A stretch of 64,000 nucleotides of DNA from an uncultured Gammaproteobacteria bacterium. Its GTDB lineage: Bacteria > Patescibacteriota > Microgenomatia > UBA8517 > UBA10165. The DNA lies in assembly GCA_964472675.1 (NCBI GenBank), contig CAYYLO010000001.1, positions 21,704 to 85,703 of the forward strand. Reading direction: 5' to 3'. This document shows positions 40,861 through 64,000 of this stretch, piece by piece (the stretch's first letter is position 1; each line of letters starts with the position of its first letter). The notes beneath the pieces are model-generated. The model was not told the DNA's origin. It saw only the letters and a list, made by a program, of their open reading frames with translations, and did not search any database. The position numbers and the translations under genes are program-made.

Positions 40861-42328
40861 TGAAGACTTTCCTTGTGTCTTGAGCAAGCGAGGGACCGAC
40901 TAAAGAAAAGATTAATAGCGCGTAAATCGCAATTCCTGAAGGTACCAATATTAAAACTCCAAGCATATTGTGGGGAACAATCAACGTAGCCAGGCGGACA
41001 AAAATGCCCATGATCATGGCCGCCAGCATCGGCTTTGCGACAGAGTAAAAAAAGTTAAAATGGACTGCCCGATACCCTAGCCATATGGCAACGATTGACA
41101 CCGCTTCCACTAAAAGATAGCCTAAGGCCGCGCCGTTAAAACCAAATCTTGCTCCAAAAAAAGGAACCAAAAGCCAGGTTAAAACTACCCAGGCAATCAT
41201 TAACTTAAAAGTAGTTCTTATTCTACCGGTTGCATTTAACATATTGGTTAAAGGAGTTGCAATAGCGGCAAAGGCCGCATGTGCACCAAAAAGACCCAGG
41301 GCTAAGATTGCCGGCTGCCACTGTTTATATCTTTCAATAATCTGCAAAAGTATTGGCGCTACTAAAGCCAGACCGACAATTGATGGAAAGACCAGAAGAG
41401 AAATAAAGAATATAGACCGCGAAAGTGCGCTTTCCAGCTCTTGCCTGTTGTCCTGCAAACGCGCGTAAGCCGGGAAAGTAACTTTTATCACCTGATCCAT
41501 AAAAAACCGCAAAGGCGCCTCTCCCCACTTTTTTGCCCACAACAGAAGTCCGATTCCGGCAGGTCCTAACAACCCACCCAGGAAAATTGTCAATCCGTCA
41601 TCTTTGACAACTGCCAAAAAAGTATTCAGCTGATATGGGATGCCAAACTTGAAAAGCCCCCGCAAAGATTTGACCGAAAAACTAAATCCGGGAACCCAAG
41701 GCTGTAAGATATACATAGTGATAAGTCCCACGAGGCTCTGCGCTAAAACCGAATAGGCCAAACTTAGAATCCCAAACCCACGCAGAGCAAGAATAATTGT
41801 TAAGCCGTTAAAAACTACAGCTTCTAAGATTTGAGGAATAATAAGCCGCGTAAACTCCAATTTCCGCTCAAGTAAAACAGAAGGAATAGTTTTTAGCGAA
41901 GACAGGAAGAAGGCGATATAAAAAGACCACAATAAATAAACTCCGGGGCCGGTTATTTTTTGCCAGGAAGACAAAAAAGGCGTCGCGGTCAAGCCAATAA
42001 TAACCAAAGAAATTACCAGGAGTTGTTGAACTAAAAAGGTGGTCTTTAACTCCTCGGAAGTTACACTCCCTTTCTTTTGAATCAAGGCTGCAGCCAAACC
42101 GATATCTGAAAAGTAACTCAAAAACCCGCGTATGGCGAGTACGATATAGTAAACACCAAACACTTCTTTAGCAAAGAGCGCGGAGAAAAAAGCTAGAGAA
42201 ACTAAATTTATGCCCTGAAGAATAAAGTTCCGGCTGGTCAAAGCCAAAACTCCAGAAATCGCCCTCTTTTTTACAATGGCGAGGGTCAACCCCTCATCAA
42301 CCACTTCAACCGTTTCAATATTAGTCAC
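40841..42328 (-). CDS. Wzx-like oligosaccharide flippase (polysaccharide biosynthesis protein, MOP superfamily)
   Basis: N-terminal KRAISGVLALTSRNFILQGINLVSLAFFSALFAKEVFGVYYIVLAIRGFLSYFSDIGLAAALIQ, typical of Wzx/RfbX; 12-14 TM helices. Confidence 0.8.
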   Translation of the reverse strand: MTNIETVEVVDEGLTLAIVKKRAISGVLALTSRNFILQGINLVSLAFFSALFAKEVFGVYYIVLAIRGFLSYFSDIGLAAALIQKKGSVTSEELKTTFLVQQLLVISLVIIGLTATPFLSSWQKITGPGVYLLWSFYIAFFLSSLKTIPSVLLERKLEFTRLIIPQILEAVVFNGLTIILALRGFGILSLAYSVLAQSLVGLITMYILQPWVPGFSFSVKSLRGLFKFGIPYQLNTFLAVVKDDGLTIFLGGLLGPAGIGLLLWAKKWGEAPLRFFMDQVIKVTFPAYARLQDNRQELESALSRSIFFISLLVFPSIVGLALVAPILLQIIERYKQWQPAILALGLFGAHAAFAAIATPLTNMLNATGRIRTTFKLMIAWVVLTWLLVPFFGARFGFNGAALGYLLVEAVSIVAIWLGYRAVHFNFFYSVAKPMLAAMIMGIFVRLATLIVPHNMLGVLILVPSGIAIYALLIFSLVGPSLAQDTRKVFNAILKR

Positions 42329-42343
42329 ATTAAAGATTGTATC

Positions 42344-43111
42344 GTGTACAATGTTTTTGTGCCAGCTCGAACTTCAATTTTCCTTCTCATCCTCTTAACA
42401 AATCTTTGGGTGTGGAGACTGCTTGATATATCACTAGTGGTTTTTACATTGACAGTTGTGTCTTGTTCAGTTTTTTTGCTTGCCAATACCCCAAACAAAA
42501 AGACATTATTTGTAATTTGTTTTTCTCTACTGCTTTTGGCTCAGTGGAAAACCACCAAAAGAGTTGAACTTACAAGACTCACAAACGATGAGCAAAGAAT
42601 TCAACAAACAAGAATGATTGATGAATATCCGCCTGTGCACTTTACTTTTTTGGGCAAAACAGTTTGGCTTCCAATTCCCCATTGGTTTGAAGAAAGGAAA
42701 GAGTCAATCGCTTTTTTTAAAATTCAAAAAAACTTAGGAGAGGTTTTAGATTTTAATTTATATTTCTTCGCAAATCATCCCCGCGAAAGAGTAGGCGTTG
42801 CAGAATTTGAAAAACTCCCCTACCTCTTTATACCGCTTTTCCTTCTTGGACTAACAATAGGTCTAAAGAAGACAAGTCCGCTCTGTCTGTTGAGCTTTCT
42901 GGCGCCAATCGCCCTAATATCTCTGGTCGGACAAGACAATCCAATGGGTCCCTTTTCTCTTCTGCCGTTTTTTCTCGCAACAATAACCGTAGGTGCAGAA
43001 AATTCCTTGGAAAAAGTAAAAAAGAAAAAGCACGCAAAAGTTATCGTTATTATTTTTTTGATAGCACTTTTTATGAACGTTATCCAACAATATGCGTATA
43101 CTAAATTTTAA
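42344..43111 (+). CDS. Hypothetical membrane protein (GTG start; start uncertain)
   Basis: ORF with several hydrophobic helices and no recognisable domain. Lies only 15 nt from the divergent flippase start, so the real start may be downstream (first in-frame ATG near 42620). Confidence 0.3.
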   Translation: MYNVFVPARTSIFLLILLTNLWVWRLLDISLVVFTLTVVSCSVFLLANTPNKKTLFVICFSLLLLAQWKTTKRVELTRLTNDEQRIQQTRMIDEYPPVHFTFLGKTVWLPIPHWFEERKESIAFFKIQKNLGEVLDFNLYFFANHPRERVGVAEFEKLPYLFIPLFLLGLTIGLKKTSPLCLLSFLAPIALISLVGQDNPMGPFSLLPFFLATITVGAENSLEKVKKKKHAKVIVIIFLIALFMNVIQQYAYTKF

Positions 43112-44765
43112 AGTCTTCCAAATCTTTGCCTTGATTTTTATTACCTTGTTGGGATGTTACTTATACTCCTACAAGCTGGGAGAGATCCCCTCGGGCTTCT
43201 ACATAGACGAGGCTGTGACCGGGTACAACGCCTATTCAATCCTACAAACCGGCAAAGATGAATACGGGAAAGCCTTCCCTTGGGCAATGAGATTTTTTGG
43301 GTCATACTCACCCCCTTTGTATACCTATCTAACTGCCGCTTCTGTAAAGTTTTTTGGCCTAACCATTACTGCCGTTCGCCTGCCATCTGTGATCTTAGGT
43401 GTGGCATCAATCTTTATTATCTTTATCTTTCTCAAAAACATTCCATTGATCAAATCTCCACTCACACCGTTGTTGGGAGCTTTTTTGTTTACACTCTCTC
43501 CTTGGAACCTTTTTTATGCAAGAACTGGATATGAAGTTTATCTGGGATTTTTTTTATTCTCTTTGGGAATACTATTTTTATGGCTGGGCTTTCAAAAGAA
43601 GAGTTTCCTAAATCTTGGTCTTGTTATTTTATCTTTTTCAACCTATGGCGCTCATACAGAAAGATTCCTGATACCGTTATTTATAGTTATCTTCTGCTTT
43701 ATCTTTAGAAAAATTAGTCTTTGGGGACTGCTGCTGGCCTTAATTGTGCAAATACCCAATATCTTACTTTTTCGAACCTCTGCTTTCTTTACCAAGGGTT
43801 CACTTTTTTATAGTTCGTTGGTTGTCGAACAGGCAAAAAAGATGTCTTTGTTCCCGCTTATTTCAATTCCACTGGCTTTTGTGAGGGAATTTTTATCCCA
43901 GGCTTTTGTTTACCTTTCACCTCGATCATTATTTTTTACACCAGACCCGGATCCTCAGCGCTCTATGCCCGAGCTTTCAACTTTTTATTTTTGGCTGGCA
44001 CCCCTTTATGTACTGGGTTTGTGTGTTCTTTGGAAAAATAAACAAAAAATATTTTCGAAATTTATCAGTGTATTAGTAATCAATATTTTATTGCTGGTTG
44101 CCTTAACAGCAGATCCTTTCTCCACCCAAAGGGCACTTCCTTTGCTATTGCCAATCATTCTAATTATTTGCCTCGGACTCGACAGTGTTTTAAACAAAGC
44201 AAGAGTTGTTGTTTGGGTACCTGCTTTTATATTGTTGACTTGCGTTTCTTTACTTTTTCTTTGGAGATCGTACTTTGTTTTCCTGCCAACAGAACGGGCC
44301 AAAGTTTGGGGCTATGGCTTCCACGAGCTAGCACAGGAAATACAAAAAAGGCCGGACAAACATTTTGTTATAGACCAAACAAGGACCAAGCCGGCCTACA
44401 TTGAGTTGGCGTTTTTTATGAAATATCCTCCCGAAAAATTCCAGGCCGAAACGGAAAGAGGAATAAAGGACAGGTATTATACTGATTTGTCCTTTAACCC
44501 GCATTACAAATTTGCCAATATAGAAACAAGAAACCTAAAATGGGAAGAGGATATTTACCAAGATGAGATAGTTGTCGGGGACGAGCTGACGGTTTCCCAG
44601 GAGCAAGCCAGCGAACACTTCTTAACAAAAGTTTTTGAAATTAAAGACCCTGTAAGCAATATAATTTTTGTCGGCTGGCAAACCAACCCATCAAAAAAAT
44701 GCCGCCAATCTCCTTCTGTTAAGTGTTCGTACTTATTCCCCACTTCGGAGGATAAAAGTATTTAA
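43092..44765 (+). CDS. PMT/GT39-family glycosyltransferase (GT-C)
   Basis: SGFYIDEAVTGYNAYSILQTGKDEYGKAFPWAMRFFGSYSPPLYTY; same architecture as the minus-strand array but encoded on the plus strand. Confidence 0.85.
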   Translation: MRILNFKVFQIFALIFITLLGCYLYSYKLGEIPSGFYIDEAVTGYNAYSILQTGKDEYGKAFPWAMRFFGSYSPPLYTYLTAASVKFFGLTITAVRLPSVILGVASIFIIFIFLKNIPLIKSPLTPLLGAFLFTLSPWNLFYARTGYEVYLGFFLFSLGILFLWLGFQKKSFLNLGLVILSFSTYGAHTERFLIPLFIVIFCFIFRKISLWGLLLALIVQIPNILLFRTSAFFTKGSLFYSSLVVEQAKKMSLFPLISIPLAFVREFLSQAFVYLSPRSLFFTPDPDPQRSMPELSTFYFWLAPLYVLGLCVLWKNKQKIFSKFISVLVINILLLVALTADPFSTQRALPLLLPIILIICLGLDSVLNKARVVVWVPAFILLTCVSLLFLWRSYFVFLPTERAKVWGYGFHELAQEIQKRPDKHFVIDQTRTKPAYIELAFFMKYPPEKFQAETERGIKDRYYTDLSFNPHYKFANIETRNLKWEEDIYQDEIVVGDELTVSQEQASEHFLTKVFEIKDPVSNIIFVGWQTNPSKKCRQSPSVKCSYLFPTSEDKSI

Positions 44766-45105
44766 TTTCTACCTTACCCGGTTTGTATTGTGCTTTTATC
44801 TTCACTCTGTTGCTTTTTAACTCCGGAAAACGAACCCGGGAATATTTATCCAGCTCACAAAACATACCCTGACAATCTATCTCATGCATTTTTCTCCCCC
44901 ATAAACTTTTGAACTTAATACCCAAACGCTCAAACTCTTTATCTTGGTTCTCAATCATAAAGTCACCAATCAGTGGAAGACTATGCAGTCGCTCAAACAA
45001 ACCTTTCAGGGTTGGTGCACTTATCAACTTCTGTGCCACACCATCGGTAACAAAAACTTTCCTTAATAACGCCAATGAGTACTTTTCGGTATTAAAGTTT
45101 GCCAA
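44719..45105 (-). CDS. Hypothetical protein
   Basis: 128-aa ORF convergent with the PMT gene end; no recognisable motifs, and the coding status is uncertain. Confidence 0.25.
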   Translation of the reverse strand: MANFNTEKYSLALLRKVFVTDGVAQKLISAPTLKGLFERLHSLPLIGDFMIENQDKEFERLGIKFKSLWGRKMHEIDCQGMFCELDKYSRVRFPELKSNRVKIKAQYKPGKVEIKYFYPPKWGISTNT

Positions 45106-45548
45106 AGAAAATCTCCTGCCTCTCCGCCGCCAATTTCCAATATGTATCGTAGACTTCTTCCCTTACCTTCATACTAAGTTAGAGTACCACACATAAGAAT
45201 CAGCCTCTCAATAGAGTAAAATTACGAAGTTACTTTTATGCCTACAACACACAGGGCGGAGCATGCATGCATTTTTATGATGGATAAAAATTATCAACAA
45301 GAAAATGGGCAAGATTTGGGACATTTGCAACAAAAAATACTTCACTCGAAGCAATCCGCTTGAACTATCCACTTAAGGAAGTGCGAACTTCGCACGTCTC
45401 ATTAAGCGAACTGCTGTAAGTGAAGTATCCGGTCCTGCCCCTACCCAAACGTATGCTTGGAACGCGCGCCGGACGGCGACAATTCGGAAACGGAATCTTT
45501 GTGTTTATATTATACCTCACATAGCAACATGTCACAATATACCAACAC
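45106..45548. promoter_or_regulatory. Long (~440 nt) non-coding region upstream of the AbrB-like/R-M module
   Basis: No convincing ORF (the minus-strand 45365..45799 ORF lacks any motif). Contains hairpin gtgcgaacttcgcac and -10-like TATATTATAC / TACAAT-like hexamers near 45500-45545. Confidence 0.3.
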
Positions 45549-45752
45549 ATGTTTGATGTAGAATTACGTAATCCCATGGCAAACAGAAAATCTTCCGAGC
45601 GCAATGTCCGAAAACTCACCAAAGTCGGCAAAACCAGCTTTTCCATTACTCTCCCCATCGAACTCATCCGCAAACTCGGCTGGAAAAATAAACAGAAGGT
45701 TTCCGTCTCCGAAAAGCGCAAGAGGCTTGTGGTTAGAGATTGGGAAAAGTAG
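45549..45752 (+). CDS. AbrB/MazE/SpoVT-type swapped-hairpin DNA-binding protein (possible R-M regulator or antitoxin)
   Basis: VRKLTKVGKTSFSITLPIELIRKLGWKNKQKVSVS..KRLVV matches the AbrB/MazE looped-hinge pattern (kvgkkgqvtIPkeiReklglkeGdkv). Co-directional with and immediately upstream of the methyltransferase/endonuclease pair. Confidence 0.5.
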   Translation: MFDVELRNPMANRKSSERNVRKLTKVGKTSFSITLPIELIRKLGWKNKQKVSVSEKRKRLVVRDWEK

Positions 45753-45859
45753 AATTCGCTCACATTAATATCTACTGGCAATCTCCTAAAGCCTTTCAAT
45801 AGTCACCATTTTAAAGAAATCATCGAGTGAAAATTTCCTGATATAATCAGTAAGGACAC

Positions 45860-46654
45860 ATGAATTACCCTGATGACTTCATTAATAAAATTGTTTGCGG
45901 GGACGTGTTGGAGGTTATGGCTGAAATGCCAAACGAGTGTATAGATTTAGTTATCACTTCACCACCTTATAACCTAAAAAATTCTACAGGTAATGGGATG
46001 AAGGATGGTCGTGGCGGAAAGTGGTCAAAAGCAGCACTTATAAGCGGGTATACGGATCACGGAGACAACATGCCGCACAAAGAGTATGTTGGGTGGCAAA
46101 GAAAGTGTTTAGCAGAAATGATGCGTGTCGTAAAAGAGGATGGTGCAATTTTCTATAATCACAAATGGAGAGTGCAAAACGGTTTACTACAAGATAGGCA
46201 CGATATTGTTGAAAGTTTTCCAGTTAGACAAATCATCATATGGAAACGAAAAGGGGGAATAAATTTTAACAAGGGTTACTTCTTGCCTACTTATGAAGTA
46301 ATTTATTTAATAGCAAAACCTAAGTTCAAGCTATCACCCAAGGCAAATGCATTCGGAGATGTGTGGGAACTCACACAAGAAATGAAAAATGCCCATCCCG
46401 CCCCATTTCCGGTTTCTCTTATTAACAGGATTGTTTCTTCCACTAACGCACAGATTATTCTTGATCCATTCATGGGGTCTGGGACTACAGGAGTTGCGGC
46501 TAAAGCTTTAGGTAGAAACTATATAGGAATTGAGATTTCGCCCCAATACTGTAAAATGGCTCGAGACAGAATAGAAGGAGCAAACCCACAAAAAGAATTA
46601 AGACTTAGTAAGCAAATAGAACTTTTTGATAACACAAATGCAGATTTACACTAA
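45860..46654 (+). CDS. Beta-class DNA methyltransferase (N4-cytosine/N6-adenine; SPPY motif suggests m4C)
   Basis: IDLVITSPPYNL (motif IV) preceding DPFMGSGTTGVAAKALGRNYIGIEI (motif I), the beta-class order; N6_N4_Mtase-like. Confidence 0.85.
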   Translation: MNYPDDFINKIVCGDVLEVMAEMPNECIDLVITSPPYNLKNSTGNGMKDGRGGKWSKAALISGYTDHGDNMPHKEYVGWQRKCLAEMMRVVKEDGAIFYNHKWRVQNGLLQDRHDIVESFPVRQIIIWKRKGGINFNKGYFLPTYEVIYLIAKPKFKLSPKANAFGDVWELTQEMKNAHPAPFPVSLINRIVSSTNAQIILDPFMGSGTTGVAAKALGRNYIGIEISPQYCKMARDRIEGANPQKELRLSKQIELFDNTNADLH

Positions 46655-47426
46655 GTCATCTCTAATACAAAAACTGAAGGACATTAGAGATATGGGCTGG
46701 ATAAAATCTAAACGGCCGGGAAACGCCGGAGCAGTTGGTAACACTCTTGAGGATCTCCTTGGAATAAAAGAGAACAACCTACCTATTCCTAACGCAGCTG
46801 AATGGGAACTAAAAGCTCAGCGAAAGAATACAACCTCACTTACTACACTTTTCCACATGGAGCCCTCACCCCAAGGAGCAAATATCGTTTCCTCTGTACT
46901 ATTGCCCCATTACGGCTGGGCCCATAAAGAAGCAGGAACTAGACATAAAGCAGAAGAGAAGAGGTTTAGTTTGACAACCAACGCAGTGACATCTACAGAT
47001 CGCGGATTTAGAGTTGTTGTAAATAGGGAAAAGAAGAAGGTGGAAATTTCATTTGATCTAAGTGCAACAAATATTACAAAACACAGAGACTGGTTGGCTG
47101 AAGTTGAGAAAAACATTGGACTAGGTCAGCTTAACCCGCAACCTTATTGGGGTTTTACAGACCTTATGTATAAAGCCGGGACAAAACTGAAAAATTCTTT
47201 TTATGTGTTAGCTAATAACAAGTGGGAAGGTGATAATGAATATTTTTTCTTTGAAGAAGTCAGCATCCTTACAGAATTTGACTTTGAAGATTTTCTAAAA
47301 TGTATCGAAAAAGGTTTTATATTAGTAGACTTTGATGCACGGAGTGGTCACAATCATGGAACTAAATTTAGAATAAGACAAAACCATTGGCCTGACTTAT
47401 ATAAATCTTGCACCAAAGTTATCTAA
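46638..47426 (+). CDS. Type II restriction endonuclease, MvaI/BcnI-like (PD-(D/E)XK)
   Basis: N-terminal GWIKSKRPGNAGAVGNTLEDLLGI ... AEWELKAQRKNTTSLTTLFHMEPSP resembles the MvaI/BcnI family ELK catalytic region. About 260 aa, and overlaps the methyltransferase 3' end, which is typical R-M operon organisation. MvaI/BcnI partner MTases are m4C enzymes, consistent with the SPPY MTase upstream. Confidence 0.5.
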   Translation: MQIYTKSSLIQKLKDIRDMGWIKSKRPGNAGAVGNTLEDLLGIKENNLPIPNAAEWELKAQRKNTTSLTTLFHMEPSPQGANIVSSVLLPHYGWAHKEAGTRHKAEEKRFSLTTNAVTSTDRGFRVVVNREKKKVEISFDLSATNITKHRDWLAEVEKNIGLGQLNPQPYWGFTDLMYKAGTKLKNSFYVLANNKWEGDNEYFFFEEVSILTEFDFEDFLKCIEKGFILVDFDARSGHNHGTKFRIRQNHWPDLYKSCTKVI

Positions 47427-47612
47427 AAGTCGAAACAGATCCTTCCTGGCGGGAGAAGCTGACCTAAGAGACAACGATAAAAAAGATTTATTGCCGGTAC
47501 GGCATTGCCCCATCGAAGAATGATCCGGTTTTTGGTTCTCTTGCTCTTTTTCGCGGAGCTTGTGGAATCTGCAAAGAGAACTGAAAAATACCTGGGTTTT
47601 GTAGAAGTAATT

Positions 47613-48878
47613 TTAATTTACTACGAGAGAGAGGTTAGGCAAAGAATCTTCGGCTGGAATTTGCCGGATAGTTGAATTTTTAGAAGCAGTTTCTTGCAGC
47701 ATATCGAAAAATATTTCAAACTGTTTTTCGGAAGTGAATGTTTCGGCCACTGTTTTTAAACCATTTTTAATAAACCTCTTACTTAACGATTCGTCATTTA
47801 TAACCCTCTCTATCTTCTGGGCAAGCAAACTTGCGTCATTTGGTGGGACAAGATACCCGTTATATGAATCGCTAATAATCTCCGGAATTCCCCCGACGTT
47901 TGTACCAATAACCGGCAACCCGCACGCCATTGATTCAATAAATACCTGTCCGAATGTCTCATTTTCAGAGGGGAGTACAAACAGATCCGCACCGTTATAG
48001 ACTTTACACATTTGCACCAACCGGAAGTTTCTTAACAAAACCTGATCTTCAATACTATGTAACTTAATGTATCCTGTCAGCATATCAAATGCTTGCGTGT
48101 ATTCTCTATTCAAACTCTCCGGGGGTTTGCCTACCGCGATTAGAAGTTTTAGGTAAGGATAGCGGAGAGCAATCTTGGAAAAAGCTTCAATCAAATTAAT
48201 AACCCCCTTTTTTTGCAGCACATTGCGCGTGCCATGGATAATTCTTGTGGCGGTAAGGATAAGTTTGGTTTCTGAGGGAAGGTTGAGCTCTTTTTTCAGT
48301 TGACTTCTGCTCTGCGTATCTTGGTAAAACTCCTTGGGGTTGATTCCCAAGTAGTTAATTGATAACAAATCGATACCAGCTCCTTTTTGAAAACAGTCAC
48401 CGGCAACGCTTTTGCTCACACAACTTATTCTTTCCCACATCAGTTGGTTGATAAGTTCTACCTGAAGGTCTGTGACAGCAAAAGAATGGAGGCGGGCAAC
48501 TAAGGGAATTTTGTGTAATCCGGCAACCATATTCAGCAAGATACAGTACGCGGCGGGAAGACCGACATGGAAGTTCTCTGCGCAAATAATGTCAATTTTA
48601 TGTTTATTAATAACCTCTGCTACAACAGCAGCAAATTGGTGTGCTCTTTCTGAAATTGCTTTCTGGTCATCTAAACCGTATCTATACAAACTCTTTTCGT
48701 GATAAATAATGACGGATCCCTGGTGCTCAGTTCGGTTCTCTCCTTGCGAAGTTGGCATAAGAATTACTGTCTTCGGAGAAGACGCATGTTTGCAATAATT
48801 GACAAGGTTTACAAGATAACGTTCAACACCGCCAACACTTTCTAATGGCGAATTTTGTGCGATAAAGAGAATATTCAT
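47613..48878 (-). CDS. GT4-family glycosyltransferase
   Basis: MNILFIAQNSPLESVGGVERY N-terminus and LFVLPSENETFGQVFIESMACGLPVIGTNVGGIPEII C-terminal GT4 signature. Confidence 0.85.
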   Translation of the reverse strand: MNILFIAQNSPLESVGGVERYLVNLVNYCKHASSPKTVILMPTSQGENRTEHQGSVIIYHEKSLYRYGLDDQKAISERAHQFAAVVAEVINKHKIDIICAENFHVGLPAAYCILLNMVAGLHKIPLVARLHSFAVTDLQVELINQLMWERISCVSKSVAGDCFQKGAGIDLLSINYLGINPKEFYQDTQSRSQLKKELNLPSETKLILTATRIIHGTRNVLQKKGVINLIEAFSKIALRYPYLKLLIAVGKPPESLNREYTQAFDMLTGYIKLHSIEDQVLLRNFRLVQMCKVYNGADLFVLPSENETFGQVFIESMACGLPVIGTNVGGIPEIISDSYNGYLVPPNDASLLAQKIERVINDESLSKRFIKNGLKTVAETFTSEKQFEIFFDMLQETASKNSTIRQIPAEDSLPNLSLVVN

Positions 48879-49083: not shown

Positions 49084-49962
49084 GTGTACTATGGAATTAT
49101 GGTGCATTTTCCAAAAAATAACCAAACTATTTGGGTTTCGCATTCTTCGATCTCTGATTTTTTGAAGTGTCCGCGGTCATATTACCTTCGCAACGTTTTA
49201 AAAAGCAAAGCTACCAACCGCAAGATGACAATAATGACTCCACCTCTTGCTTTAGGACAGGCCGTTCACGACACTCTAGAATCTTTGTCACTTCTTCCCA
49301 AAGACGAAAGATTCAAAACGCCCCTGATGGATAAATTTGAGGATGCATGGGGAAAAGTTACCGGCAAAAAAGGCGGATTTAAAAATGCCGCCGAAGAAGA
49401 GGAATACAAAGAACGGGGCAGAAAGATGATTTTGAGAGTTTTGGAAAGCCCGGGAATTCTTCTTAATAAAGCCGTCCGCATTAAGCCCCGAAGCGAAAAA
49501 GATCGTCTTTCAAATTTCGATCTTCCTTATTACAAAATCTCCGAAGAAGACAACATCACACTTTGTGGCAAAATTGACTGGCTTGAATATTTGGAAGAGG
49601 AAAACACAGTTCACATTGTCGACTTCAAAACAGGTAAAAATGAAGAGGATCAGGCATCACTTCAGTTGCCTATTTATTATCTTCTGGCAAAAAATTGCCA
49701 AAGCTTTAATATCTCGCGCGCAAGCTACTGGTACATAGACCGGGAAAGCAAACCAAAACAAGTTTCACTCCCGAGCGAAAAAGAGGCAAAAGAGAAAGTT
49801 TTAGAGATTGCTCACAGAATTAAACTTGCACGGCAACTTCAACTTTTTAAATGTGCCAGAAACGGCTGCTTTTCCTGCCTTCCCTACGAGGCAGTTTTGC
49901 GAGGCAGCGGAGAATGTGTGGGTGTCAGTCAAACAAATCAGGATATATACATTTTACTCTAG
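49084..49962 (+). CDS. PD-(D/E)XK nuclease-superfamily protein with a Cas4/AddB-like 4-Cys Fe-S cluster
   Basis: N-terminal Cys (FLKCPRSYY) plus a C-terminal CARNGCFSC cluster as in Cas4/AddB/Dna2 nuclease domains; RecB-motif IVDFKTGK (D-x-K). Confidence 0.65.
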   Translation: MYYGIMVHFPKNNQTIWVSHSSISDFLKCPRSYYLRNVLKSKATNRKMTIMTPPLALGQAVHDTLESLSLLPKDERFKTPLMDKFEDAWGKVTGKKGGFKNAAEEEEYKERGRKMILRVLESPGILLNKAVRIKPRSEKDRLSNFDLPYYKISEEDNITLCGKIDWLEYLEEENTVHIVDFKTGKNEEDQASLQLPIYYLLAKNCQSFNISRASYWYIDRESKPKQVSLPSEKEAKEKVLEIAHRIKLARQLQLFKCARNGCFSCLPYEAVLRGSGECVGVSQTNQDIYILL

Positions 49963-62949: not shown

Positions 62950-63666
62950 ATGGCAAACAGACAAGTCAGGATAGCGGTGGCACTGGATGTGCCATCGCTT
63001 TTGAGCGCCCACCGACTCGTGGCTGAACTCAAGCCACATGTCGACTACTTCAAGGTAGGTCTGCAACTGCTCCACTCAGAAGGAACTCCGAGCGTCCTGC
63101 GTGTTCTACAAGGAGAAGGTGCCCGACTGATGGTGGACTGGAAGCTGCATGACATTCCGGAAACTGTCAAGCTCGCAGCCGAAGCCATCAGACAGTACAA
63201 CGTCGCCTACTTCAACTTGCACGCAACCACCGGACGCGCATCCATTTCTGCCGCCATCACCGCACGGGGTGGAAGCAAGGTCATGGGCGTTACCGTCCTG
63301 ACTTCGCTGGACGATGCGGAATGCACAGAGATCTTCGGGGCAGCAGCAGACATCAAGGTCCCGCAGTTTGCGCGTACTTTCGTGTCGCTCGGCGGCCACG
63401 CCATCATCTGCTCCGCCAAAGAGGCACAGCTTCTGCGCAGCATGCGCGAGCTTGACTCCGCGGAACTCTGGACTCCCGGAATCCGACCCGTCTGGGCTGC
63501 AGCCGGAGACCAGAAGCGAGTGCTCTCGCCCGCCGATGCAGTCCGCGCTGGAGCAGACGTCTTGATCATCGGTCGCCCGATTACTCAACCGCCAGGCGAG
63601 ATCGGAAGCCCCGTCGAGGTCACAAAGCGCATCCGCGCTGAGATCGAGGAAGCGCTAGCCGCTTAG
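62950..63666 (+). CDS. pyrF: Orotidine-5'-phosphate decarboxylase
   Basis: IAVALDVPS and the catalytic VDWKLHDIPETV (DxKxxDIP) motif; strong AAAGGAGG SD 8 nt upstream of ATG 62950 (track shows a TTG at 62944). GC about 60%, versus ~39% for the rest of the window. Confidence 0.85.
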   Translation: MANRQVRIAVALDVPSLLSAHRLVAELKPHVDYFKVGLQLLHSEGTPSVLRVLQGEGARLMVDWKLHDIPETVKLAAEAIRQYNVAYFNLHATTGRASISAAITARGGSKVMGVTVLTSLDDAECTEIFGAAADIKVPQFARTFVSLGGHAIICSAKEAQLLRSMRELDSAELWTPGIRPVWAAAGDQKRVLSPADAVRAGADVLIIGRPITQPPGEIGSPVEVTKRIRAEIEEALAA

Positions 63667-63678
63667 GGAGGAAGTGTC

Positions 63679-64000
63679 ATGGTTATTGCGGCAACAGACA
63701 GATGCTTGCCAGAGAAGGCAGTACTTTTACACCTGAGACAAGCTGGCGCAGTCCTGACAGACGATCACTTCGTCTACACGTCAGGAAGGCACGGCAGCGC
63801 CTACGTCAACAAGGACGCTGTATATCCTGATGCGGGACTTGCCAACGGCCTCTGTATCGACATCGCTCGCCACTTCCAAGATGCAGAAGTGCAAACAGTG
63901 GTGGGAACCGAGCACGGCGGCATCATCCTGCAATTCGCCACTACCTGGAACTTGCGGATGCAGACTGGTCGCCAGATCAGCGGTGTATACGCAGAAAACG
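63679..64000 (+). CDS. pyrE: Orotate phosphoribosyltransferase-like (type I PRTase), 3'-truncated by window end
   Basis: HFVYTSGRHGSAYVNKD parallels PyrE's FTLKSGRKSPYFFN hood region. GGAGGA SD precedes the ATG; GC-rich like pyrF; runs off the window. Confidence 0.55.
   Translation, partial: MVIAATDRCLPEKAVLLHLRQAGAVLTDDHFVYTSGRHGSAYVNKDAVYPDAGLANGLCIDIARHFQDAEVQTVVGTEHGGIILQFATTWNLRMQTGRQISGVYAEN

What the first reader, a model, noticed from the sequence alone, without database searches (positions are those of the whole stretch)
45549..47426. Compact R-M module: AbrB/MazE-type small protein, then a beta-class SPPY methyltransferase, then an MvaI/BcnI-like endonuclease
Three co-directional plus-strand genes sit inside the minus-strand glycosylation island. 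The MTase has the SPPY motif typical of N4-cytosine enzymes. The REase has the ELK-containing N-terminal region reminiscent of MvaI/BcnI, whose cognate MTases are m4C, which is internally consistent. R-M controller proteins are normally Xre-type HTH proteins, whereas here the upstream small gene is an AbrB/MazE swapped-hairpin fold. That would be an unusual controller, or else an orphan antitoxin.
Basis: partly seen in the sequence, partly recalled or inferred. Interest (0 to 1): 0.5.

Follow-up and report, generated by a model that had tools for sequence, protein, structure and literature searches.

The report
R-M cassette behind AbrB-fold autorepressor
An ordinary, horizontally mobile restriction-modification gene pair sits directly behind a 58-residue AbrB-fold DNA-binding protein that carries its own operator. 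That protein belongs to a Patescibacteria-wide family that often precedes restriction, toxin and defence genes, so it may be a non-classical regulator of such cassettes.

Summary
All three plus-strand genes are real. The MTase (45860-46654) is a beta-class SPPY enzyme, and its closest solved relative is an N4-cytosine MTase. The REase (46638-47426) is a full-length MvaI/BcnI-family protein. M-R travels as a two-gene unit in 80 bacterial and archaeal loci, and none of the 66 loci that could be checked has an AbrB-type gene upstream. The R-M part is therefore ordinary.

The small gene should start at ATG 45576 (58 aa). It has the AbrB/MazE fold. It lacks an antitoxin tail and has no toxin partner.

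Its family (446 clusters at 50% identity) carries phased palindromic operators just upstream of the start codon, and operator type co-varies with the predicted DNA-binding hairpin. The window has ATTACGTAAT 3 nt before the ATG, its only occurrence in 64 kb.

Family members are followed by unrelated cargo enriched in R-M genes: 9 of 65 downstream neighbours against 1 of 58 upstream, and 3 of 6 in a second sample. A sister genome keeps the same adjacency, with the small gene truncated and the REase carrying an internal deletion.

The small protein is very probably an autorepressor. Control of M-R by read-through transcription is plausible but not shown. It is not a classical C protein and is unlikely to be an orphan antitoxin.

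The parts
45563..45572 (.). Putative operator: the perfect palindrome ATTACGTAAT, 3 nt upstream of the small gene's ATG. It overlaps the end of a -10-like TAGAAT (45559-45564) and the expected transcription start.
   Evidence: It is the only match in the 64-kb window, even allowing 1 mismatch. The same 10-mer lies in the 90 nt upstream of the homologous gene in 8 other loci, 9 of 66 in total, against a chance expectation of about 4e-4 per region. Across the family, 67% of upstream regions have palindrome arms of 7 nt or more, against 7.7% of shuffles. Binding by the protein is inferred.
45576..45752 (+). Minimal AbrB/MazE/SpoVT-fold DNA-binding protein and putative autorepressor.
   Evidence: Pfam MazE_antitoxin E=1.7e-5. 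The homologue alignment fixes the start. AlphaFold2 gives pLDDT 84 and a beta-beta-alpha-beta-beta topology. The top Foldseek hits are MazE, the AbrB N-domain, SpoVT and VapB. The family has 446 clusters at 50% identity with E<=1e-3.
45753..45859 (+). 107-nt spacer between the small gene and the MTase. It holds an extended -10-like TGATATAAT (45839-45847) and a Shine-Dalgarno AGGA (45853-45856). No terminator is present.
   Evidence: Sequence read. No terminator-like site anywhere in 44600-47700. No significant RNA structure (z=-0.09). There is no operator-like copy of ATTACGTAAT here. The stretch is not conserved upstream of orthologous MTases elsewhere.
45860..46654 (+). Beta-class DNA methyltransferase, 264 aa, SPPY motif IV; predicted to make N4-methylcytosine.
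   Evidence: Pfam N6_N4_Mtase E=2.9e-44. Closest solved structure is a DNA cytosine-N4 MTase, 8s9n, E=1.2e-34 over residues 6-243. PADLOC MTase_II PDLC03305 E=2e-121. Orthologues of 65-76% identity sit directly upstream of the REase orthologue in about 45 loci.
46638..47426 (+). MvaI/BcnI-family type IIP restriction endonuclease, 262 aa. Its start overlaps the MTase 3' end by 17 nt.
   Evidence: Pfam MvaI_BcnI E=3.4e-65, full length. PDB hits MvaI and BcnI. PADLOC REase_II PDLC03524 E=1.2e-75. 6726 homologues, conserved at 56-60% identity across bacterial and archaeal phyla and always next to an MTase. The active-site equivalents of MvaI E36/E55/K57 are present, but D50 is Asn.
45330..45505 (-). 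Neighbour, not shown to be part of the module: a structured sRNA. The Rfam DUF3800-IX motif lies at 45427-45497, followed by a long terminator-like hairpin and a U6 run. It is transcribed divergently from the small gene, from a sigma-70-like promoter at 45537-45509.
   Evidence: Rfam 41 bits against a gathering score of 36.8, E=2.6e-5. Promoter TTGTGA-17-TATAAT, 10 of 12 matches. Fold z=-4.4.

Best explanation
Two separate genetic modules lie head to tail. Module 1 (45860-47426) is a type IIP restriction-modification cassette. A beta-class SPPY methyltransferase, predicted to make m4C, protects the host site. A monomeric MvaI/BcnI-family endonuclease, whose start overlaps the MTase stop by 17 nt so that the two are probably translationally coupled, cuts unmodified CCNGG-type sites. 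The window shows modest depletion of CCSGG and none of CCWGG. This cassette spreads horizontally as a two-gene unit and normally has no regulator gene. Module 2 (about 45540-45752) is a 58-residue AbrB/MazE-fold DNA-binding protein with its own palindromic operator, ATTACGTAAT, which overlaps its -10 element and transcription start. The protein most likely dimerises into a swapped-hairpin barrel, binds this operator and represses its own promoter. No terminator separates it from the MTase, so transcription escaping this self-limited promoter probably reads into M-R. That would give the cassette a buffered, low-level input in addition to any promoter of its own. Modules of the same type, each with a different operator specificity, sit in front of many unrelated R-M, toxin and defence genes in Patescibacteria-type genomes, so the pairing is probably functional rather than accidental. 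Shown here: gene identities, fold, family-wide operator architecture, covariation between protein and operator type, cargo enrichment, and conservation of the adjacency in a sister genome. Inferred: DNA binding, autorepression, read-through into M-R and any effect on R-M expression.
For: R-M identity. M-R is a conserved unit in 80 loci from many bacterial and archaeal phyla. Fold of the small protein. Operators: 66 non-redundant upstream regions carry palindromes or repeats phased at about 11 nt. Arms of 7 nt or more occur in 67% against 7.7% of shuffles, and phased runs of 7 nt or more in 65% against 4%. ATTACGTAAT is unique in the window and recurs in 9 of 66 loci. Operator class co-varies with the beta1-beta2 hairpin sequence: the GGG insertion accompanies CTGAATTAATTCAG in 8 of 8, RKIT..GKTSLA accompanies GTATTATAATAC in 6 of 6, and RKIL.S-G-DSYA is seen with TGATTTAAATCA. 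Portability: the gene plus 20-130 nt upstream is 80-88% identical at nucleotide level between loci whose flanks and cargo are otherwise unrelated. Cargo: the immediate downstream neighbours include HsdR, HsdM, a type IIG enzyme, HaeIII REase, a C5 MTase, DpnI, N6_N4 MTases, a ResIII helicase, Shedu, Fic, Zeta, NYN and DUF3800. R-M genes are 9 of 65 downstream against 1 of 58 upstream (Fisher p=0.014). Four R-M cases overlap the small gene or lie within 24 nt of it, which implies co-transcription. In the window there is no terminator or structure between the small gene and M. Sister genome L173 (about 80% nt identity) has M-R at the same place with the C-terminal 28 codons of the small gene still directly upstream, so the linkage predates their split.
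Against: None of 66 related M-R loci has an AbrB gene upstream, so this R-M family does not need one. No copy of the operator lies near the MTase or REase start. The MTase has a plausible promoter of its own, TGATATAAT. In L114 and L120 an intrinsic terminator separates the small gene from HsdR. Many family members precede housekeeping genes (glmS, ddl, obg, speDE, dnaE) or nothing at all. The upstream-neighbour control saw only the 25 most frequent Pfam families, so its R-M count is a lower bound. The loci are not phylogenetically independent. The window operator is a single 5+5 palindrome, whereas most relatives have 2-3 phased copies. In L173 the MTase stays intact without the small gene.
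Confidence: 0.6

Rival explanations
1. Chance neighbours. The small protein regulates only itself, or the divergent sRNA, or distant targets. The R-M cassette simply inserted into a permissive, variable spot downstream and is expressed from its own promoter.
For: The M-R family is self-sufficient in the 66 loci checked. There is an extended -10-like TGATATAAT 12 nt upstream of the MTase ATG. No operator copy lies near M or R. Family members also precede housekeeping genes. Terminators follow the small gene in L114 and L120. The sRNA promoter lies back to back with the small gene's promoter.
Against: R-M genes are enriched downstream but not upstream of family members, and this was replicated in 3 of 6 independent picks. 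Four R-M cases have overlapping or nearly abutting reading frames. The adjacency is retained in a diverged sister genome. There is no terminator in the window spacer.
Confidence: 0.28
2. A true functional analogue of a C (controller) protein. The AbrB-fold protein is needed to time or activate REase expression after the cassette enters a new cell, as C.PvuII does.
For: It lies upstream of and co-oriented with the R-M genes and has a palindromic operator at its own promoter, which resembles C-box logic. The family is linked to many R-M types. In L173, loss of the small gene coincides with an internal deletion in the REase while the MTase stays intact.
Against: The gene order is regulator-M-R with R translationally coupled to M, not C-R. 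There is no operator at a separate R promoter. There is no evidence of activation. The R-M family normally lacks any such gene. The fold is not the Xre HTH that defines C proteins. The L173 coincidence is a single case.
Confidence: 0.1
3. An orphan type II antitoxin (MazE/VapB/PrlF-like) left behind after its toxin gene was lost.
For: Pfam MazE_antitoxin hit. Weak NCBIfam doc_partner hit (E=0.068). A few family members precede Fic/Doc, Zeta or NYN genes. Database annotations for some relatives call them antitoxins.
Against: The protein ends right after beta4 (58 aa), leaving no C-terminal toxin-binding segment. No toxin gene or remnant lies between it and the MTase. Toxin-type neighbours are a small minority of a very diverse cargo. 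The gene is under clear conservation as a stand-alone 56-62-aa protein in hundreds of clusters.
Confidence: 0.05

Closest known systems
MvaI (CC/WGG) and BcnI (CC/SGG) restriction-modification systems with m4C methyltransferases
   Same: The REase matches the whole Pfam MvaI_BcnI profile, and MvaI and BcnI are its only solved relatives. The partner MTase has the SPPY motif and is closest to a solved N4-cytosine MTase, which matches the m4C protection reported for MvaI (PMC1874612).
   Different: Similarity to MvaI and BcnI is distant (E=2e-17 and 1.8e-8). The metal-binding Asp50 of MvaI is Asn in this subfamily, with an extra Glu two residues before the E-x-K. The genes are M then R, co-directional and overlapping. 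Specificity is unknown; only CCSGG is depleted, and modestly.
Controller (C) proteins of type II R-M systems (C.PvuII, C.BamHI, C.Esp1396I, C.Kpn2I)
   Same: A small DNA-binding protein is encoded upstream of and co-oriented with R-M genes. It has a palindromic operator at its own promoter, and operator specificities diverge between systems.
   Different: The fold is AbrB/MazE swapped-hairpin, not Xre-type HTH. The protein is not a conserved component of this R-M family. It precedes M rather than R. It has a single operator, with no evidence of an activation site. Its relatives also precede non-R-M genes. A 2025 review of R-M regulation lists only HTH C proteins, MTase-HTH fusions, promoter methylation and antisense RNA (PMC12707154).
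AbrB / MazE / VapB / SpoVT swapped-hairpin DNA-binding domains
   Same: Pfam hit, predicted beta-beta-alpha-beta-beta topology, and the best structural matches (MazE 1ub4_C with TM 0.67 and rmsd 1.5 A; AbrB N-domain; SpoVT; VapB).
   Different: The protein consists of the DNA-binding domain plus a 13-residue basic N-terminal arm only. It has no C-terminal oligomerisation, toxin-binding or sensor domain. Its family has phased operators of about 11 nt whose sequence changes from locus to locus.

Membership tests
MvaI/BcnI restriction endonuclease family (PF15515) | Full-length sequence match to the family profile and to the solved members | tested here: met
   E=3.4e-65 over profile positions 1-227 of 227. 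MvaI 2oa9 E=2e-17 and BcnI 2odh E=1.8e-8. PADLOC REase_II E=1.2e-75.
MvaI/BcnI restriction endonuclease family (PF15515) | PD-(D/E)XK catalytic residues equivalent to MvaI Glu36, Asp50, Glu55 and Lys57 | tested here: inconclusive
   E38, E57 and K59 align with E36, E55 and K57. Asp50 aligns with Asn52, which is Asn in all 106 close homologues scored; a distant paralogue in L040 keeps Asp. A nearly invariant Glu55 may compensate, but activity was not tested.
MvaI/BcnI restriction endonuclease family (PF15515) | Adjacent cognate methyltransferase | tested here: met
   The MTase is directly upstream and overlaps by 17 nt. The same pairing is seen in essentially all 80 related loci.
MvaI/BcnI restriction endonuclease family (PF15515) | Recognition of CCWGG or CCSGG; monomeric sequential nicking | not testable with these tools
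   The only indirect evidence is site counts: CCSGG 48 observed against about 75 expected (1 of 300 simulations as low), CCWGG 122 against 102-124.
Beta-class N4-cytosine DNA methyltransferase | Motif order IV (SPPY) before motif I (FxGxG), and an N6_N4_Mtase domain | tested here: met
   SPPY lies at residues 33-36 and FMGSGTTG at about 203-210 in the translation. Pfam E=2.9e-44. The best solved relative is a cytosine-N4 MTase, 8s9n.
Beta-class N4-cytosine DNA methyltransferase | Product is N4-methylcytosine | not testable with these tools
   This needs methylome sequencing or an in vitro assay.
R-M controller (C) proteins | Xre-type helix-turn-helix fold | tested here: not met
   There is no HTH Pfam hit. 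The predicted fold is beta-beta-alpha-beta-beta, and the structural neighbours are AbrB, MazE and SpoVT.
R-M controller (C) proteins | Conserved gene of the R-M system, co-transcribed with the REase gene | tested here: not met
   None of 66 related M-R loci has an AbrB-type gene upstream; 2 have an HTH_3 ORF. In the window the small gene precedes M, not R.
R-M controller (C) proteins | Palindromic operator at its own promoter giving autogenous control | tested here: inconclusive
   An analogous operator, ATTACGTAAT, lies at -13 to -4, and the family-wide operator architecture is clear. Binding and its regulatory outcome were not tested.
AbrB/MazE/SpoVT superfamily | Swapped-hairpin beta-barrel half-domain | tested here: met
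   Pfam PF04014 at 25.1 bits against a cut-off of 24.7. About half of the listed relatives carry a precomputed PF04014 hit. AlphaFold2 pLDDT 84. The Foldseek top 8 are all members of the superfamily. The dimeric state was not modelled.
Type II antitoxin (MazE/VapB/PrlF type) | C-terminal toxin-binding extension and an adjacent toxin gene | tested here: not met
   The protein ends 3 residues after beta4. The next gene is the MTase. Toxin-like neighbours (Fic, Zeta, NYN) are a small minority in the family.
DUF3800-IX RNA (RF02968), a neighbouring element | Score above the Rfam gathering threshold; a DUF3800 gene nearby | tested here: inconclusive
   41 bits against a gathering score of 36.8. tblastn with two DUF3800 proteins found no DUF3800 gene in the window.

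The most novel reading that the evidence does not exclude
The 58-aa protein represents a previously undescribed class of regulator for restriction-modification and defence cassettes. It would be a portable, minimal AbrB-fold autorepressor module with fast-diverging operator specificity, which in Patescibacteria takes the role that HTH C proteins play elsewhere. It would throttle transcription into type I, IIP, IIG, IIM and DpnII-like R-M systems, Shedu, DUF3800, Fic and Zeta genes, and so permit their safe acquisition.
Probability: 0.3. Interest if true: 0.65.

Novelty: new variant of a known kind. Interest (0 to 1): 0.45.

Why it matters
The R-M pair itself adds nothing new. The value lies in the small gene. 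All described dedicated R-M regulators are HTH proteins, MTase-HTH fusions, promoter methylation or antisense RNAs (PMC12707154). A compact AbrB-fold autorepressor that recurs in front of many unrelated R-M and defence genes, with operators that co-vary with its DNA-binding hairpin, would be a second, structurally unrelated solution to the problem of expressing a toxic cassette safely. It occurs in the Patescibacteria-type genomes named in the source annotations. It would also offer a natural set of small orthogonal repressor-operator pairs, and a marker for finding unknown defence genes by looking at what lies downstream.

Tried and rejected
1. A word-indexed homology search with the single small protein found only one relative, and that relative's locus has no R-M genes. 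Taken alone this would have argued against any link. Profile and pattern searches then recovered the family.

2. I looked for the AbrB gene in 80 loci encoding REase relatives. tblastn found none, and a Pfam scan of 73 small upstream ORFs found none.

3. I looked for a conserved promoter or operator upstream of orthologous MTases. There is no conservation.

4. I looked for a second ATTACGTAAT-like site near M or R. There is none in the whole window.

5. I tested whether the DUF3800-IX RNA is a partner of the small gene. There was no Rfam hit in L005, or in L159, L165 and L155, where the small gene precedes DUF3800. No DUF3800 gene is detectable in the window. The link is rejected for now.

6. 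I looked for a single conserved protein partner of the small gene by clustering all flanking ORFs. There is none.

7. CCWGG avoidance, the MvaI-like expectation, is absent.

8. Literature searches for an AbrB, MazE or SpoVT regulator of R-M systems found nothing relevant. PMC11473606 is unrelated.
Full report
**Observation.** The three plus-strand ORFs are present. Pfam assigns them as follows:
- 45549-45752: MazE_antitoxin, E=1.7e-5, 25.1 bits, just above the 24.7 cut-off.
- 45860-46654: N6_N4_Mtase, E=2.9e-44.
- 46626-47426: MvaI_BcnI, E=3.4e-65, covering the whole profile.

The MTase translation shows SPPY near the N-terminus and FxGxG near the C-terminus, which is the beta-class order. The REase has the E-x-K element (EWELK).

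Two coordinates need correcting:
- The small protein's relatives are 56-62 aa and begin M-x-R-R-K, aligned with the second Met (MANRK). The gene is therefore 45576-45752, 58 aa.
- The REase starts at ATG 46638, as in the gene called on public contigs, and overlaps the MTase stop by 17 nt.

**The R-M pair is ordinary and mobile.**
- The REase has 6726 homologues.
- The 80 best genome loci come from Patescibacteria, Chloroflexota, Planctomycetota, Bacteroidota, cyanobacteria and several archaeal groups. They still share 56-60% identity.
- In essentially every locus an MTase lies directly upstream on the same strand. In about 45 loci it is a 65-76% identical orthologue of the window's MTase.
- PADLOC places both proteins in type II R-M models. 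Both also match different halves of one 513-position model, so fused M-R forms probably exist.
- The closest solved MTase is annotated as a cytosine-N4 enzyme (8s9n, E=1.2e-34). The only solved REase relatives are MvaI and BcnI.
- In the 64-kb window CCWGG is not depleted (122 observed against 102-124 expected). CCSGG is modestly depleted (48 against about 75; 1 of 300 order-3 Markov simulations as low). It is the most avoided of the 48 palindrome-like 5-mer patterns tested. This is a weak hint of BcnI-like specificity.

One oddity stands out. MvaI's active site is Glu36, Asp50, Glu55 and Lys57 (PMC1874612). In the window the equivalents are E38, N52, E57 and K59. The Asn is present in all 106 close homologues scored, whereas a distant paralogue in L040 keeps Asp. 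Because the subfamily is conserved and always linked to an MTase, I assume it is active, perhaps using the nearly invariant Glu55. This was not tested.

**The small gene is not part of that R-M family.**
- tblastn finds no relative of it in any of the 80 loci.
- A Pfam scan of 73 small ORFs lying upstream of the MTase in 66 loci found no MazE/AbrB hit apart from the window's own protein. Two ORFs hit HTH_3.
- Sequence upstream of orthologous MTases is not conserved.

**What the small protein is.**
- AlphaFold2, run with 95 family sequences, gives pLDDT 84 and the topology beta-beta-alpha-beta-beta.
- The best Foldseek matches are MazE (1ub4_C, TM 0.67, rmsd 1.5 A), the AbrB N-domain, SpoVT and VapB.
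- The chain ends three residues after the last strand, so it has no antitoxin-type C-terminal tail.
- An exhaustive profile search finds 446 clusters at 50% identity (133 with E<=1e-10), almost all 55-65 aa.
- Source names point to Parcubacteria, Moranbacteria and Doudnabacteria.

**Operators.** In 66 non-redundant loci, the 90 nt before the start codon nearly always hold palindromes or two to three repeats phased at about 11 nt.
- Palindrome arms of 7 nt or more occur in 67% of loci against 7.7% of shuffles.
- Exact runs of 7 nt or more repeated at a 10-12 nt offset occur in 65% against 4%.
- The core sequence differs between loci (TACGTA, CTGAATTAATTCAG, GTATTATAATAC, TGATTTAAATCA, GTACA and others).
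- It co-varies with the predicted DNA-binding beta1-beta2 hairpin. All 8 CTGAATTAATTCAG loci have a GGG insertion, and all 6 GTATTATAATAC loci have RKIT..GKTSLA.
- The window has one palindrome, ATTACGTAAT, at 45563-45572, 3 nt before the ATG. It overlaps a -10-like TAGAAT.
- It is the only match in 64 kb, even allowing one mismatch. The same 10-mer lies upstream of the homologous gene in 8 other loci.

I conclude that the protein is an operator-binding autorepressor. Binding itself is inferred.

**Link to R-M.**
- The gene plus 20-130 nt upstream behaves as a portable module. It is 80-88% identical at nucleotide level between loci whose flanks and downstream genes are unrelated. No single protein partner is conserved.
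- The gene immediately downstream is usually co-directional and close. It is very diverse, and R-M genes are over-represented among it:
  - HsdR (L114, L120) and HsdM (L147);
  - a type IIG Eco57I/MmeI-like enzyme (L112, overlapping);
  - HaeIII REase with a C5 MTase (L129) and a C5 MTase (L130);
  - DpnI (L106, overlapping);
  - N6_N4 MTases (L093) and a ResIII helicase (L099);
  - also Shedu, Fic (2), Zeta, NYN, DUF3800 (2), Bro-N, ORF6N and RadC.
- R-M families are 9 of 65 downstream neighbours against 1 of 58 upstream neighbours (Fisher p=0.014). The caveat is that the upstream scan listed only the 25 commonest families.
- In six further family members chosen only for long contigs, three precede R-M or defence genes:
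  - an EcoRI-like MTase at a 2-nt gap, followed by GmrSD/HNH and a C5 MTase;
  - Dam, KAP NTPase, DpnII and an N6_N4 MTase;
  - DUF5655, DUF3800 and DpnI.
- Against a strict link, other members precede glmS, ddl, obg, speDE or dnaE, and two HsdR loci have an intrinsic terminator after the small gene.

**The window locus.**
- The 107-nt spacer has no terminator and no significant structure.
- It does carry TGATATAAT 12 nt before the MTase ATG, and an AGGA Shine-Dalgarno. M-R could therefore be fed by read-through, by its own promoter, or by both.
- A related genome (L173, about 80% nucleotide identity, same right-hand synteny) has M-R at the same place, with only the last 28 codons of the small gene directly upstream. 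The equivalent of window 42245-45667 is missing there, and the REase carries an in-frame deletion of about 33 aa, while the MTase is intact.
- The small-gene-M-R adjacency is therefore ancestral to both genomes, and in the sister the regulator and the REase have both decayed. This is compatible with a functional link, but it is a single case.

**Verdict.** The R-M pair is a new member of a known kind. The small gene is neither a classical C protein (wrong fold, not part of the R-M family, precedes M) nor a convincing orphan antitoxin. It is best described as a portable AbrB-fold autorepressor module that recurrently heads R-M and defence cargo. A 2025 review of R-M regulation does not mention any AbrB/MazE-type regulator, and my literature searches found none.

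Noticed in passing
window 45330-45505 (-), Rfam hit 45427-45497: A structured sRNA matches Rfam DUF3800-IX (41 bits, gathering score 36.8). It has a sigma-70-like promoter at 45537-45509 and is followed by a long hairpin plus U6 (fold z=-4.4). It is divergent from the small gene. No DUF3800 gene was detected in the window, although the RNA class is defined by association with such genes. The long minus-strand ORF 45365-45799 that overlaps it is probably spurious.
   Followed up: partly
window 44719-45105 (-), with 45106-45190: A 128-aa ORF matches only the C-terminal part of the Pfam 5-hmdU DNA kinase helical domain (HMUDK_hel, E=2.4e-17). A short ATG-started ORF lies just upstream in another frame. 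It looks like a truncated or frameshifted remnant of a DNA-hypermodification gene.
   Followed up: partly
window 46638-47426, residue N52 (codon at 46791-46793): The whole REase subfamily (all 106 homologues scored) has Asn where MvaI has the metal-binding Asp50, plus an extra conserved Glu two residues before the E-x-K. A 33%-identical paralogue in L040 keeps Asp. This may be an active-site variant of the PD-(D/E)XK motif.
   Followed up: partly
L173 5935-7690 compared with window 42245-47426: A sister genome lacks about 3.4 kb: two membrane-protein genes, the HMUDK fragment, the sRNA and the 5' half of the small gene. Its REase has an in-frame deletion of about 33 aa, while its MTase is intact at 86% identity. 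This is an R-M system decaying towards an orphan methyltransferase.
   Followed up: yes
window, whole 64 kb: GGCC is strongly under-represented relative to trinucleotide composition (125 observed against about 200 expected, z about -5). This suggests past or present exposure to a HaeIII-type system that is not encoded in this window.
   Followed up: no
L129 330-400 and L130 5159-5271: Two loci with different small-gene operators share the same spacer after the small gene. It contains a perfect palindrome, GTGATATAATATCAC, centred on a -10 box, just upstream of a HaeIII REase gene in one locus and a C5 MTase gene in the other. This may be a separate operator belonging to that R-M system.
   Followed up: no
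L114, L139, L148 (about 130 nt upstream of the small gene): A conserved 5' region contains the hairpin CCCTG-N20-CAGGG between two GTATTA-type operator copies. It is shared by loci with unrelated flanks and different cargo (HsdR, SpeDE, HsdM).
   Followed up: no
window 49084-49962 (+): A stand-alone Cas4-like PD-(D/E)XK nuclease (Pfam PDDEXK_1 E=7.5e-23; PADLOC Cas4 models) has no CRISPR-Cas context. It is conserved at the same position in the sister genome L173.
   Followed up: no
window 45576-45752: Neither start variant of the small protein exists as an exact sequence in the 15-billion-protein collection, whereas the MTase and REase do. The small gene was apparently not called, or was called with a different start, on the source contig (105,837 bp).
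   Followed up: no
window 63001-64000: The last kilobase jumps to 58.7% G+C against about 40% elsewhere. There is no Rfam or tRNA hit there.
   Followed up: no
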